This document shows positions 29,976 to 47,432 of a stretch of 64,000 nucleotides of DNA, piece by piece (positions within the stretch are counted from its first letter, which is position 1; each line of letters starts with the position of its first letter). The stretch lies in assembly GCF_009914755.1 (NCBI RefSeq), contig NC_060928.1; one strand, given 5' to 3'. The DNA is from the human T2T-CHM13v2.0 reference genome, Homo sapiens. Made by a program: the position numbers and the translations under genes. The notes under the pieces were generated by a model. It had not been told where the DNA came from. It made no database searches and saw nothing but the letters and a program-made list of their open reading frames with translations.

Positions 29976-30839
29976 TTTGTTGTTGTTGTTGTTGTTTTTT
30001 TAGACAGACTCGCACCCCGGTTGGAGTGCAGTGACACAAAAATGGCTCACTGCAGCCTTGACCTCTGGGACTCAAGTGGTTCTCCCACCGCAGCCTCCTG
30101 AGTAGCTGGGACTACATGTGTGCACCATCGTGCTCAGCTCATTTGTGTTTTTAATTTTTTTGTAGAGATGATGTCTTACTATGTTGCCCAAGCTGGTCTC
30201 AATGTCCTGGGCTTAAGGGATCCTCTGGCCTCAGCCTCCCAAAAGTACTGGGATTATAGGCATGACCTGTTATTGTTTATGAACTGTGTGCTCTTTACAA
30301 TTTTCTCTTTGCAAGCATTTACTCTTTGATTTAACTCACCATTACTACAACCACTTGTCACTCATAGATTTGCCAGAGATTAGGTAAATATTTTACTTGT
30401 TTCTATTAATCTTTTTTTAAATGTACATGTAGCTTGCATTTATTTCAATGTTTAAAACTGGAGATGTTTTGGGTCTTTCTTTAGAACTTTGATGATGTTT
30501 ATAAAACATCTGTAGGAACTTAATTCTTGTTTATATAAATTAGCCTTTTTTTTTTTTTTGAGACAGAGTCTTCCTCTGTTGGCTAGGCTAGAGCACAATG
30601 GCTCAACCTCAGCTCACCGTAATCTCTACCTCCCGGATTCAAGTGATCCTTCCACCTCAGCCTCCCAAGTAGCTAGGACTACAGGCTTTTTTTTTTGTTT
30701 TTGGTAGAGACGAGGCTCACTCTATTGCCCAGGCTGGTCTTGAACTCCTGAGCTCAAGTGAACCTCCCATCTCAGCCTCCCAAAGTGCTGGGATTACAGG
30801 TGTGAGGCAGTGTGCCTGGCAAGCCTATGGCAAAACTGG
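29976..30839 (-). mobile_element. Two AluJ copies (29976-30265, 30546-30839)
   Basis: Diverged antisense Alus. Confidence 0.88.
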
Positions 30840-30912: not shown

Positions 30913-31816
30913 ATAATCCTTTAACTATACTGCTGAATTCTGTTTGCAAGTACCTTTCTGAGGATTTTTGCATCAGTCTTCATAAGGGATACTGGTCTGT
31001 AGTTTTCCTGTAGTACCTTTACTGGCTTTGGTATTAGGTTAATGCTGGCCTCATAGAACGTGTTAAGGGTATGCCCTCATCTTCAATTTTTGGGAAGTCT
31101 GAAATGATTGATACAGTTCTTCTTTAAATGCTTGGTAGAATTAATCAGTGAAGCCATCAGGTTTAGGGCTTTTCTTTGACAGGAGATGTTTGATTACTGA
31201 TTGAATCTCTTTAGTAGTTACAAATCTACTCATATTTTTTATTTCTTCATGGTTTAGCCTGGTAGGTTTAGTGTTTCTAGGAATTTCTCCATTTCACTTG
31301 GGTTATCCAATTTCTTGGCAGACAATTGCTGACAGTATTCCCCTATAACTCTTTTCATTTCTGTAGAAATGGTAGTAATGTCTTCATTTTCATTTCTGAC
31401 TTGTCTCCTTTGTTATAAGTAGATCTAGCTAGAGATTTGCAAAGTTTTTTGATTTTTGAATAACCAACTTTTGGTTTCATTTTGATTTTTCTATATTATT
31501 TTTCTAGTCTCTATTTCATTTATATCTATTCTAATCTTTACTACTTCCTTTCTACTGCTAGCTCTGGGTTTAGTTTGCTCTTCCTTTTCAGTTCCTTAAA
31601 TTGGAAAGTCCGGTTGGTGATTTGATATTTTTCTTATTTTTTAAATAATTTTTAATTTTGCTTTCTTCAGACCAGACTCTTATTTTTTAATGTAAGAATT
31701 TATAGCTAGAAACTTCCCCCTTGGCACTGCTTTTGTTGTGTCTCATAAGTTTTGGTATGCTGTGTTTTCATTTTCACTTGTCTTTATAAGTATTTTATTA
31801 TTTGTCTTGTGGTTTC

Positions 31817-32150
31817 TTTTTTTTTTTTTTTTTTTAGACAAACAGCTTTATTTGAAAGACGGAGGACAGCCGAGTCCCCCCGACCCCGTGGTCCTGGCGA
31901 CATCGGTCTCACGTGTGGGAAGACCAGTGTCCTGTGGAGAGAAAACAGGGTTAGGGGTCGGCAGCCTGGGTCAGGAGCCAGACCACGCGAGCGGCCGCAC
32001 CCAGGGAGAGGCCGCGGGGCCTGTTGGGGCTGGGTTTCACCGCCGCACATGTGTCAGCGCGCGGTGAGCTGAGGCCCCTGGAGGCTCTGGGCGCCGAATC
32101 TCACCCGCTGCCATGGCCAAAGCCGGGGGGTGATTTTCAACCAATGCCGG
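31817..32150 (-). pseudogene. Retrocopy of a SNORA78(ACA64)-headed, SNHG9-like transcript (snoRNA + intron remainder + terminal exon + polyA)
   Basis: Poly(T) 31817-31835, minus-strand AATAAA at 31847-31852, TSD GTGGTTTCTTT at 31809 and 32151, retained branch point/pyrimidine tract/CAG acceptor at 31932, CpG-rich. Confidence 0.85.
32019..32145 (-). ncRNA. SNORA78/ACA64 H/ACA snoRNA retrocopy (127 nt)
   Basis: Minus strand reads ATTGGTTGAAAATCACCCCCCGGCTTTGGCC...GGCGGTGAAACCCAGCCCCAACAGGC, matching the recalled SNORA78 sequence. ACA box lies 3 nt from the 3' end. Confidence 0.8.
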
Positions 32151-32609
32151 GTGGTTTCTTTTTTGATCTAATGGTTAAGAGTGTGTTAATTTCTATGATT
32201 TTTAAATTTTCCAGTTTTCTTTTTGTTTTTGATTTCTAAGTTCATCCCATTGTGGTCAGGGAAGATATTTTGCTGTCTTTTAAAATCAATTCAGACTTAA
32301 TTTATGACCTATCTTGGAATTTATCCTATGTATACTTGAGAAGAATGTGTATTTCATTGTTGGGTAGAGTGTTCTGTATATGGTTGTTAGATCTAGTTGG
32401 TTTATTGTGTTGTGAAAGTCCTATATTTCCTTGCTTAGATTTTGATGGTTCTATCCACTACTGAGATTGGGATATTAAAGTCTCCAACTATTAATGTAGA
32501 ATTGTACTTCTCCCTTCAATTACGTCAATTTTTGTTTCATATATGTTGATGGTTTGTCATTAGGAGCATACATGTTTACAACTGTTAAACCTTCTTGCTG
32601 TATTGAACC

Positions 32610-32910
32610 TTTTATGTTTTTTATTTTTTTAAGACAGGATCATGCTCTGTCGCCCAGGCTGAAGTGCAGTGGTGTGATCATAGCTCACTGCAGCCTCCAG
32701 TGCTTTGGCTCAAGCTATCCTTCTGCCTCAGCCTCCTGAGTAGCTGAGACTACAGGCACATGCTACCATGCTCAGCTAATTTTTTAATTTTCTGTAGAGA
32801 CAGCGTTTCACTGTGTTGCCCAGGCTGTCTCCAACTCCTGGTCTCAAGGCACCCTCATACCTTGGTCTCCCAAAGTGCTGCGATTACATGCCTGAGCCAA
32901 CGTGCTCATC
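32610..32910 (-). mobile_element. AluJ
   Basis: Antisense dimer. Confidence 0.9.

Positions 32911-46553: not shown

Positions 46554-47432
<879 letters not shown>

What the first reader, a model, noticed from the sequence alone, without database searches (positions are those of the whole stretch)
31809..32164. Retro-fossil of a snoRNA-capped, polyadenylated RNA (SPA-like SNORA78-SNHG9 species)
Seen, on the minus strand between TSDs (GTGGTTTCTTT): 5 extra nt, a 127-nt H/ACA snoRNA (32145-32019), ~87 nt of unspliced intron with branch point CCTAAC, pyrimidine tract and CAG acceptor (31932), a ~95-nt terminal exon with AATAAA, and poly(A). No upstream host exon is present. Known (recalled): SNORA78/ACA64 sits in the SNHG9 intron, and 5'-snoRNA-capped, 3'-polyadenylated (SPA) lncRNAs are described mainly for C/D snoRNAs at the Prader-Willi locus. 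Inference: L1 copied an RNA that starts at the snoRNA, retains the intron 3' half and ends at the host poly(A). That is germline evidence of an H/ACA-headed SPA-type RNA. The copy keeps many CpGs, so it is probably young, and it is sense to any minus-strand lncRNA from the RAB33B promoter, so it could donate a terminal exon or be processed as a snoRNA.
Basis: partly seen in the sequence, partly recalled or inferred. Interest (0 to 1): 0.8.

Follow-up and report, generated by a model that had tools for sequence, protein, structure and literature searches.

The report
Known snoRNA retrocopy (ACA64c) near RAB33B
This is a dead, L1-made DNA copy of an SNHG9 RNA that began at the SNORA78 snoRNA and ended at the host gene's poly(A) site, and both this kind of copy and this locus were described in 2006.

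Summary
On the minus strand, a perfect 14-nt target-site duplication brackets the element. Inside it are 5 nt of intron, a full ACA64/SNORA78 copy (Rfam, 111 bits), the remaining 87 nt of the SNHG9 intron, the 98-nt terminal exon with AATAAA, and poly(A).

The segment downstream of the snoRNA matches the chr16 parent up to its poly(A) site. Of 7 SNHG9-derived copies in this genome, 4 start 5-6 nt upstream of the snoRNA, 3 start at the host transcription start, and none starts elsewhere.

The inferred template is therefore well supported: an RNA with a snoRNA 5' end and a poly(A) 3' end. It is not new.
- Weber 2006 defined exactly this anatomy as the "Type-3 snoRNA retroposon" and proposed the same mechanism.
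- Luo & Li 2007 list this locus as retrogene ACA64c (their Fig. 1C).
- H/ACA-headed poly(A)+ RNAs have since been seen directly (cSPA, 3'-snoRTs).

The copy is not especially young: 6.3% of sites changed on its own lineage. Its snoRNA part drifts as fast as its flanks, and no annotated transcript covers it. Verdict: a neutral relic of a known class. Interest is low.

The parts
32151..32164 (-). 5' copy of the target-site duplication, AAAAAAGAAACCAC
   Evidence: 14 of 14 identical to the 3' copy, and it abuts the first base of the insert.
32146..32150 (-). 5-nt leader CCGGC, the SNHG9 intron bases just upstream of the snoRNA (parent L002 1501-1505)
   Evidence: matches the parent. The chr1 copy starts at the same base and the chr16:12.33 Mb copy starts 1 nt further upstream.
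32019..32145 (-). Copy of the H/ACA snoRNA ACA64/SNORA78 (RefSeq LOC124900188; ACA64c of Luo & Li 2007)
   Evidence: RF01225, 111.4 bits, E = 4e-24, model positions 1-128, ACA box kept, 2 non-canonical pairs flagged; 91.4% identical to the parent snoRNA.
31932..32018 (-). Rest of the SNHG9 intron downstream of the snoRNA, unspliced, with CCTAAC, a pyrimidine tract and the CAG acceptor
   Evidence: aligns to parent L002 1633-1727. Identity is 76.8% counting a 7-nt deletion.
31834..31931 (-). SNHG9 terminal exon (exon 2), with AATAAA at 31852-31847, ending at the host cleavage site (GTCTAA)
   Evidence: 86.9% identical to parent L002 1728-1826. The chr1, chrX:79.29 Mb and chr6 copies end at the same site to within 2 nt.
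31823..31833 (-). Poly(A) tail: 11 untemplated A, within an A run of 19 that includes templated A and A of the TSD
   Evidence: the TSD begins 11 nt after the last aligned base.
31809..31822 (-). 3' copy of the target-site duplication, AAAAAAGAAACCAC

Best explanation
The element is a Type-3 snoRNA retroposon, a fossil of one L1-mediated retrotransposition event.

Inferred sequence of events:
1. An SNHG9 transcript was cleaved and polyadenylated at its normal site but kept its single intron.
2. Its 5' part (the 12-17-nt exon 1 and about 50 nt of intron) was removed by 5'-to-3' exonuclease.
3. The exonuclease stopped 5 nt in front of the assembled H/ACA snoRNP on SNORA78.
4. L1 ORF2p nicked an A-rich site inside an older L1 and primed on the poly(A) tail.
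5. It copied the roughly 320-nt RNA to its true 5' end, creating the 14-nt duplication.

Today the copy is most likely an inert relic that drifts neutrally.

Shown: the anatomy, the match to the parent, the TSD and poly(A), and the recurrence of the same 5' end in independent copies. Inferred: the nuclease step, snoRNP protection, the absence of a cap, and the lack of present function.
For: - Anatomy and TSD.
- End-to-end match to SNHG9 from 5 nt upstream of the snoRNA to the poly(A) site.
- 5' ends of the 7 SNHG9-derived copies found: 4 of 7 start at parent L002 1500/1501, which is 5-6 nt upstream of the snoRNA (chr4, chr1, chr16:12.33 Mb, chrX:86.58 Mb). 3 of 7 start at the CTCTCC start site (chrX:79.29 Mb unspliced, chr11, chr6 spliced). 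0 of 7 start elsewhere.
- The three start-site copies show that reverse transcriptase normally reaches the 5' end of this short RNA and can read through the snoRNA.
- The chr16:12.33 Mb copy has the same 5' end but stops exactly at the intron's last CAG. It is followed by a G-rich, A-rich tail and a TSD matching 14 of 15. It therefore came from an excised intron, so that 5' end was made by trimming, not by transcription initiation.
- The flanks of the chr4 copy match no other copy's flanks, so the insertions are independent.
- Weber 2006 describes the same class and mechanism for many snoRNAs.
- Nanopore reads put the 5' ends of poly(A)+ '3'-snoRTs' a median of 2 nt upstream of H/ACA snoRNAs.
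- Neutral drift: in the chr4 lineage, 7 of 126 snoRNA sites changed against 13 of 184 elsewhere (p = 0.65). In the parent lineage the figures are 2 of 126 against 13 of 184 (p = 0.03).
Against: - No RNA data were available, so the 5' chemistry of the template (monophosphate or cap) and the nuclease are not shown.
- The strict TSD finder found no TSD for 2 of the 7 copies, chr1 and chrX:86.58 Mb. A gapped search did no better than shuffled flanks: 345 and 160 of 500 shuffles reached the observed score. The chr1 event therefore rests on its A-rich (AAAT)n tail at the host poly(A) site and on its unrelated flanks.
- The chrX:86.58 Mb copy is so decayed that its 5' limit is only where a local alignment ends.
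- The 5' end lies 5 nt upstream of the Rfam model start, not at it. The true mature 5' end of SNORA78 was not checked.
- Luo & Li report one EST (DA572426, whole embryo) for ACA64c, so the locus may be transcribed at some level.
- The genome search scores only the best candidates, so 7 copies is a lower bound.
Confidence: 0.85

Rival explanations
1. Alternative internal promoter. The template was an ordinary capped Pol II transcript that initiated 5 nt upstream of the snoRNA, inside the CpG-island intron. It could not splice because it had no 5' splice site, and it was polyadenylated normally. No snoRNP capping would be involved.
For: The parent region is very CpG-rich (31 CpG in 326 nt, observed/expected 0.85) and lies about 65 nt downstream of the main start site. 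Dispersed initiation is conceivable there. DNA alone cannot tell a cap from a trimmed end.
Against: The chr16:12.33 Mb copy has the same 5' end but ends at the intron's last base. That requires splicing and hence an upstream 5' splice site, so the end was made by trimming. The same coincidence of retrocopy 5' ends with mature snoRNA 5' ends is reported across many snoRNAs and hosts (Weber 2006). The sequence at the start (GA/CCGGC) is not a pyrimidine-purine initiator or a TOP start; those motifs are recalled, not tested.
Confidence: 0.06
2. Chance 5' truncation. L1 reverse transcriptase copied an ordinary intron-retaining SNHG9 RNA and fell off, or stalled at the snoRNA structure, so the 5' end says nothing about the RNA.
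For: 5' truncation is common for L1-made copies (established knowledge). Weber notes some truncated Type-3 versions.
Against: 4 of 7 copies end within a 2-nt window, and 0 of 7 end at a place that is neither that window nor the start site. Under uniform truncation over 392 nt, P(2 or more of 6 others in the same window) = 3.9e-4, and P(3 or more) = 2.6e-6. Reverse transcriptase moves 3' to 5' on the RNA, so a stall at the snoRNP would leave the snoRNA out; every copy has the whole snoRNA. Three copies read through it to the start site.
Confidence: 0.04
3. The copy is a working gene today. It would be either a second SNORA78-like snoRNA, or a donated acceptor, terminal exon and poly(A) site for a minus-strand RNA from the RAB33B bidirectional promoter. 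This is compatible with the origin given above.
For: Rfam score of 111 bits with the ACA box intact. The CAG acceptor and AATAAA are intact. Luo & Li report a typical H/ACA fold and one EST. Weber raises exon donation by Type-3 snoRTs as a possibility.
Against: RAB33B-AS1 ends at 47326, about 15 kb upstream of the element in the minus sense, and no annotated minus-strand transcript covers the element. The RefSeq snoRNA row is a cmsearch prediction only (hub table). The snoRNA part changes as fast as its flanks (7 of 126 against 13 of 184, p = 0.65), whereas the parent snoRNA is constrained. Nine CpG transitions in its own lineage fit decay in methylated, silent DNA. Weber states that snoRTs can be transcribed only when inserted in a gene.
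Confidence: 0.08

Closest known systems
Type-3 snoRNA retroposon (snoRT) of Weber 2006, PLoS Genet 2:e205 (PMC1687206; passages and sections 8 and 14 read)
   Same: It starts at the mature 5' end of the snoRNA, carries the whole downstream intron and then the processed downstream exon(s) of the host, and ends in poly(A) bracketed by a TSD. The proposed origin is also the same: the host pre-RNA is cut, degraded 5' to 3' up to the snoRNA, and polyadenylated normally.
   Different: There is only one downstream exon, so no exon-exon junction is present. The start lies 5 nt upstream of the Rfam model start. ACA64 does not occur in Weber's main text (0 hits), and his supplementary figures could not be seen.
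Retrogene ACA64c of Luo & Li 2007, Nucleic Acids Res 35:559 (PMC1802619; passages with Table 1 and Table 2 rows read)
   Same: It is the same locus. Their entry is chr4, intergenic, 91.6% identity to ACA64; I measure 91.4%. It is the only chr4 copy above the Rfam cut-off. It is shown as the example of their Fig. 1C. Their ACA64b, d and e correspond to my chr1, chrX:79.29 Mb and chr16:12.33 Mb copies.
   Different: They filed it under 'snoRNA plus retroposed 3'-flank nucleotides' (processing intermediate), not under their exon-containing classes D and E. That the 3' flank is the rest of the SNHG9 intron plus its terminal exon up to the host poly(A) site is a small refinement. Their old-assembly coordinate was matched to this window by chromosome, identity and uniqueness, not by a lift-over.
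SPA lncRNAs: 5' snoRNA-capped, 3' polyadenylated (Wu et al. 2016, not read; known here from review passages)
   Same: The inferred template has the same end structure, a snoRNP-protected 5' end and a canonical poly(A) tail. The reviews state that an H/ACA snoRNA (SNORA5C) can replace the C/D cap in a reporter.
   Different: SPA1 and SPA2 arise from read-through after an upstream poly(A) site, are very long and are retained in the nucleus. Here the RNA is about 320 nt and comes from within a two-exon host gene. The window holds only the DNA fossil, not the RNA.
cSPA RNAs and '3'-snoRTs' from snoRNA-retaining host transcripts: NOP56/SNORD86 and EIF4A1/SNORA67 (preprint 10.1101/2021.01.21.427585, passages; PMC12152556, section 3.1)
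   Same: An intron-retaining host transcript is shortened from the 5' end to the snoRNA. Nanopore 5' ends lie a median of 2 nt upstream of H/ACA snoRNAs. The RNAs are poly(A)+ and dyskerin-bound.
   Different: Those cases are thought to depend on translation and NMD of coding hosts. SNHG9 is non-coding, and another paper calls it a target of the nuclear PAXT pathway (PMC11487169). SNHG9 and SNORA78 are not named in those papers' main texts (0 hits).

Membership tests
Type-3 snoRNA retroposon (Weber 2006) | [quoted passage not shown] | tested here: met
   The insert starts 5 nt upstream of the RF01225 model start, directly after the TSD. The mature 5' end of SNORA78 itself was not checked.
Type-3 snoRNA retroposon (Weber 2006) | The entire intron downstream of the snoRNA in the parental host gene is present | tested here: met
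   31932-32018 aligns to parent L002 1633-1727 up to the CAG acceptor, with one 7-nt deletion.
Type-3 snoRNA retroposon (Weber 2006) | Processed downstream exon(s) of the host, ending at the host poly(A) site with a poly(A) tail | tested here: met
   Exon 2 at 31834-31931 with AATAAA. It ends at GTCTAA, as the chr1, chrX:79.29 Mb and chr6 copies do, and is followed by 11 or more A.
Type-3 snoRNA retroposon (Weber 2006) | Target-site duplication at the insertion point | tested here: met
   14 of 14 nt, abutting both ends.
L1-mediated retrocopy | Insertion at an L1 endonuclease-type site (T-rich/A on the nicked strand) | tested here: inconclusive
   The TSD begins with six A, so the nicked strand reads TTTTTT/G. 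This is near the recalled TTTT/A consensus but not identical to it.
ACA64 / SNORA78 H/ACA snoRNA (Rfam RF01225) | Covariance-model score above the gathering threshold over the full model | tested here: met
   111.4 bits against 35, model positions 1-128. The parent scores 132.7 bits.
ACA64 / SNORA78 H/ACA snoRNA (Rfam RF01225) | Expressed, dyskerin-bound and guiding pseudouridylation | not testable with these tools
   No RNA data were available. There is no sign of constraint: 7 of 126 snoRNA sites changed against 13 of 184 elsewhere.
SPA lncRNA (applies to the inferred template RNA, not the DNA element) | 5' end formed by a snoRNP that blocks 5'-3' exonuclease, with no m7G cap | not testable with these tools
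   Inferred from the recurrent 5' end in 4 of 7 copies, one of which derives from an excised intron.
SPA lncRNA (applies to the inferred template RNA, not the DNA element) | 3' end made by canonical cleavage and polyadenylation | tested here: met
   The copy ends 13 nt after AATAAA at the same site as three other copies, followed by poly(A).
SPA lncRNA (applies to the inferred template RNA, not the DNA element) | Arises from read-through downstream of an upstream gene's poly(A) site | tested here: not met
   The snoRNA lies in the only intron of a two-exon host, about 70 nt from its start site. The route resembles cSPA or 3'-snoRT formation instead.

The most novel reading that the evidence does not exclude
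SNHG9, a non-coding host with a 12-17-nt first exon, makes a stable H/ACA-capped, polyadenylated RNA of about 320 nt (SNORA78, retained intron, exon 2). This RNA has been the gene's preferred L1 template in the germline for tens of millions of years: 3 of the 5 copies that end at the host poly(A) site are of this form. Because the host has no reading frame, the RNA would be made by a nuclear route or a decapping route rather than by NMD. That would make it a natural H/ACA SPA of a kind not yet shown for a non-coding host.
Probability: 0.45. Interest if true: 0.3.

Novelty: already known. Interest (0 to 1): 0.12.

Why it matters
It matters little for new biology. The locus is a tidy textbook case of a Type-3 snoRNA retroposon.

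The SNHG9 retrocopy family as a whole preserves five RNA species of one small gene:
- the spliced RNA;
- the unspliced RNA;
- an RNA running from the start site to the snoRNA 3' end;
- an RNA running from the snoRNA to the intron end;
- an RNA running from the snoRNA to the poly(A) site.

This supports the view that snoRNA-headed poly(A)+ RNAs, now called SPA, cSPA or 3'-snoRT, are old and recurrent in the germline. Weber inferred this from retrocopies ten years before SPAs were named.

Practical value: the RefSeq row LOC124900188 is best read as a retro-pseudogene. Reads from SNHG9 or SNORA78 may mis-map to it.

Tried and rejected
Stop-free fragments gave only a sub-threshold RVT_1 hit (19.1 bits against 29.6, E = 0.0011) at 30924-31076 (-), and nothing for the 4 other fragments. 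That the insertion sits in an old L1 ORF2 therefore rests on that weak hit plus my own recognition of L1-like peptides (recalled).
- TSD search for the chr1 and chrX:86.58 Mb copies found none under the strict rule. Gapped alignment did no better than shuffled flanks. I read a degenerate AAATTTA...TTTT repeat at chr1 by eye, but it is not supported statistically.
- A segmental-duplication origin was rejected. The chr4 flanks match no other copy's flanks, and the matches among other flanks are dispersed repeats in varied orientation.
- 'Kept CpGs mean hypomethylation or selection' was rejected. Nine CpG transitions on its own branch and a fall from 31 to 24 CpG look like ordinary decay. The rate argument uses recalled mutation rates.
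- Supplements: those of PMC12152556 held as text (4 files, 2,520 characters) do not name SNHG9 or SNORA78. Whether his Figures S2 and S3 show an ACA64 copy, or whether Luo & Li's supplementary figures show the ape-specific alignment, could not be seen.
- Literature searches for a described snoRNA-headed SNHG9 RNA: 'SNORA78'+'SNHG9' gave 12 papers (listing only). 'SNHG9'+'intron retention'+'snoRNA' gave 3 papers (listing plus passages of one). None describes such an RNA in what I saw. This is not proof of absence.
Full report
**What is there**

On the minus strand of the window, the sequence reads as follows:
- a 14-nt direct repeat AAAAAAGAAACCAC (32164-32151);
- CCGGC (32150-32146);
- a complete H/ACA snoRNA (32145-32019);
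- 87 nt ending in a pyrimidine tract and CAG (32018-31932);
- 98 nt containing AATAAA (31931-31834);
- 11 further A (31833-31823);
- the same 14-nt repeat (31822-31809).

Rfam's ACA64 model (RF01225) matches 32145-32019 over its full length at 111.4 bits (gathering score 35, E = 4e-24). Two non-canonical pairs are flagged and the ACA box is in place.

**The parent**

A search of the window's own assembly with 31830-32150 finds the SNHG9 locus on contig C16 (1985138-1985463) at 86% identity over the whole query.

Reading that locus shows a TATAAA box and a CTCTCC... start. A very short first exon ends in AG|GTAGGT, and about 54 nt of intron follow. Then come the snoRNA (132.7 bits), 95 nt of intron ending in CAG, and a terminal exon with AATAAA.

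The window's copy aligns from 5 nt upstream of the snoRNA to the GTCTAA that precedes the host cleavage site. It aligns with nothing upstream of that point. By region, identity to the parent is 91.4% for the snoRNA, 76.8% for the intron remainder (including a 7-nt deletion) and 86.9% for exon 2.

Three searches (the copy, the Rfam family, and the parent from promoter to poly(A) site) together give 7 SNHG9-derived copies besides the parent. There is also one sub-threshold Rfam hit (23.6 bits) that I set aside. The tool scores only the best candidates, so 7 is a lower bound.

Pairwise and multiple alignments with flanks sort the copies by their ends.

| Copy | 5' end | 3' end | Tail | TSD |
|---|---|---|---|---|
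| chr4 (this window) | 5 nt upstream of the snoRNA | host poly(A) site | 11 A | 14 of 14 |
| chr1:160278485-160278810 | 5 nt upstream of the snoRNA | host poly(A) site | (AAAT)n | none found |
| chrX:86.58 Mb (very decayed) | alignment starts 5 nt upstream | just past the host poly(A) site (about 4 nt) | none recognisable | none found |
| chr16:12333608-12333822 | 6 nt upstream of the snoRNA | last base of the intron (CAG) | CGGGGGG + A6 | 14 of 15 |
| chrX:79290680-79291043 | start site | host poly(A) site, intron unspliced | A-rich | 9 of 10 |
| chr11:119343929-119344114 | start site | a few nt past the snoRNA 3' end | A-rich | 10 of 11 |
| chr6:42579904-42580016 | start site | host poly(A) site, 12-nt exon 1 spliced to exon 2 | poly(A) | 14 of 14 |

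So 4 of 7 copies start within a 2-nt window just upstream of the snoRNA, 3 of 7 start at the host start site, and 0 of 7 start anywhere else.

Under uniform truncation along the 392-nt primary transcript, the chance that 2 or more of the 6 other copies fall in the window of the first is 3.9e-4. For 3 or more it is 2.6e-6.

Two caveats apply.
- The strict TSD finder found a TSD for only 5 of the 7 copies.
- For chr1 and chrX:86.58 Mb it found none, and a gapped search did no better than shuffled flanks (345 and 160 of 500 shuffles reached the observed score).

The chr4 flanks resemble no other copy's flanks. The similarities among other flanks are dispersed repeats. The insertions are therefore independent events and not a DNA duplication.

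**What this says about the template RNA**

The three start-site copies act as an internal control. For this short RNA, reverse transcription normally reaches the true 5' end, and it passes through the snoRNA without trouble. A stall at the snoRNP would in any case act on the 3' side of the snoRNA, and every copy holds the whole snoRNA. The recurrent end just upstream of the snoRNA is therefore a real RNA 5' end.

The chr16:12.33 Mb copy has that same 5' end but stops at the last base of the intron, so it must descend from an excised intron. Its 5' end was therefore made by trimming and not by initiation. That argues against the internal-promoter rival. I cannot exclude that rival for the poly(A)-site copies from DNA alone.

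**Age and selection**

A three-way comparison of chr4, chr1 and the parent over 315 ungapped columns gives the following:
- 20 changes private to chr4 (9 CpG transitions, 4 other transitions, 7 transversions);
- 14 changes private to chr1;
- 15 changes private to the parent, which the older copies mostly show to be derived in the parent.

The 86% identity to the parent thus overstates the copy's own divergence, which is 6.3%. The copy keeps 24 CpG against 31 in the parent, whereas the old chrX copies keep 0 and 2.

Luo & Li report ACA64c among nine events present in human and chimpanzee but not in rhesus. I could not test this. By recalled primate substitution rates, 3.5% non-CpG change fits an insertion near the ape/Old World monkey split. 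It is not a recent event.

Within the chr4 lineage, the snoRNA part changed as often as the rest (7 of 126 against 13 of 184, p = 0.65). The same holds for chr1 (6 of 126 against 8 of 184). In the parent lineage the snoRNA is spared (2 of 126 against 13 of 184, p = 0.03). The numbers are small, but they point to neutral drift of the copy.

**Surroundings**

The insertion lies between decayed minus-strand reading-frame fragments that I recognise as L1 ORF2-like (recalled). The only tool support is a sub-threshold RVT_1 match at 30924-31076. Four other fragments gave nothing relevant.

Alu-type SRP matches lie at 30558-30820 and 32629-32910.

The hub's table shows no minus-strand transcript over the element. 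RAB33B-AS1 ends at 47326, and the RefSeq snoRNA row is a cmsearch prediction.

**Comparison with what is known**

Weber 2006 (PMC1687206; passages and sections 8 and 14 read) defines three types of snoRNA retroposon.
[quoted passage not shown] - He also describes rare Type-2 copies that run to the 3' splice site, and G-rich tails. My chr16:12.33 Mb copy shows both.
- For RPL10/U70 he counts 30 Type-3 copies among 42 processed pseudogenes.

Luo & Li 2007 (PMC1802619; passages with table rows) list ACA64b (chr1), ACA64c (chr4, intergenic, 91.6%), ACA64d (chrX) and ACA64e (chr16).
- They use ACA64c as the example of Fig. [quoted passage not shown]
- They report one EST for it.
- Only one chr4 copy passes the Rfam cut-off, and its identity is 91.4%, so ACA64c is this locus.

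On the RNA side:
- Reviews state that an H/ACA snoRNA can cap an SPA in a reporter, and that the known natural SPAs are C/D-capped.
- A 2021 preprint infers a dyskerin-bound cSPA from EIF4A1/SNORA67.
- A 2025 nanopore re-analysis finds poly(A)+ '3'-snoRTs' whose 5' ends lie a median of 2 nt upstream of H/ACA snoRNAs.
- SNHG9 and SNORA78 are not named in the main texts of those two papers (0 hits).
- SNHG9 is called a PAXT target elsewhere.

**Verdict**

However, the kind of element, its mechanism and this very locus have been in print since 2006, and the RNA class has been seen directly since.

What is added here is minor. The 3' flank of ACA64c is the SNHG9 intron remainder plus the terminal exon, which makes it Type 3 rather than a bare "3'-flank" retrogene. 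SNHG9 has also left fossils of five distinct RNA species.

The boldest reading still open is that SNHG9 makes a natural H/ACA-capped poly(A)+ RNA by a route independent of NMD. That needs RNA data I could not reach.

Noticed in passing
L007 (G000:C11:119343929-119344114, minus): This retrocopy starts at the SNHG9 start site, keeps exon 1 and the upstream intron, and ends a few nt after the snoRNA 3' end with an A-rich tail. Its TSD matches 10 of 11. It is a fossil of a 5'-unprocessed RNA ending at the snoRNA 3' end. It resembles the hybrid mRNA-snoRNA species described in yeast (PMC9351541, seen in a search listing only) and Luo & Li's 5'-flank class B. It carries a 10-nt deletion inside the snoRNA.
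   Followed up: partly
L005 (G000:C16:12333608-12333822, minus): This is a Type-2 snoRT. It shares the 5' end just upstream of the snoRNA and runs exactly to the intron's terminal CAG. It is followed by CGGGGGG plus A6 and a TSD matching 14 of 15. The G-rich tail matches Weber's remark on TRAMP-like tails.
   Followed up: partly
L002 1435-1451 against the chr11, chr6 and chrX:79.29 Mb copies: The three start-site copies have a 12-13-nt exon 1 (CTCTCCACTTAG-like), whereas the present parent has 17 nt (CTCTCCTTTTCACTTAG). The human parent seems to have gained about 5 nt (TTTTC) in its TOP-like first exon after those copies were made. All five copies that cover the site also have one T fewer than the parent in GCTGTTTTGTCTAA.
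   Followed up: no
L002 about 1300-1430: The SNHG9 promoter holds two tandem units of about 60 nt, each with CCCCAGCCGCGGC..GGGAATC...CTATAAACG. That gives two TATA-like boxes about 60 nt apart.
   Followed up: no
L002 1633-1826 (parent intron remainder and exon 2): Outside the snoRNA, the living host gene changes about as fast as its dead copies: 13 of 184 sites in the parent lineage against 13 of 184 (chr4) and 8 of 184 (chr1). Only the snoRNA seems constrained in SNHG9.
   Followed up: partly
window 30558-30820 and 32629-32910 (minus); 30924-31076 (minus): There are Alu-type matches to the SRP RNA model below its gathering score, and a weak RVT_1 match. The retrocopy appears to sit in a decayed minus-strand L1 that also received Alu insertions.
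   Followed up: partly
L013 (G000:C23:86575858-86575984, plus): A very old ACA64 copy (80.9 bits) has a flank that still aligns to the SNHG9 intron remainder, exon 2 and AATAAA. It keeps 2 CpG. No TSD or poly(A) is recognisable. The alignment starts at the same base upstream of the snoRNA, but the copy is too decayed to be sure.
   Followed up: partly
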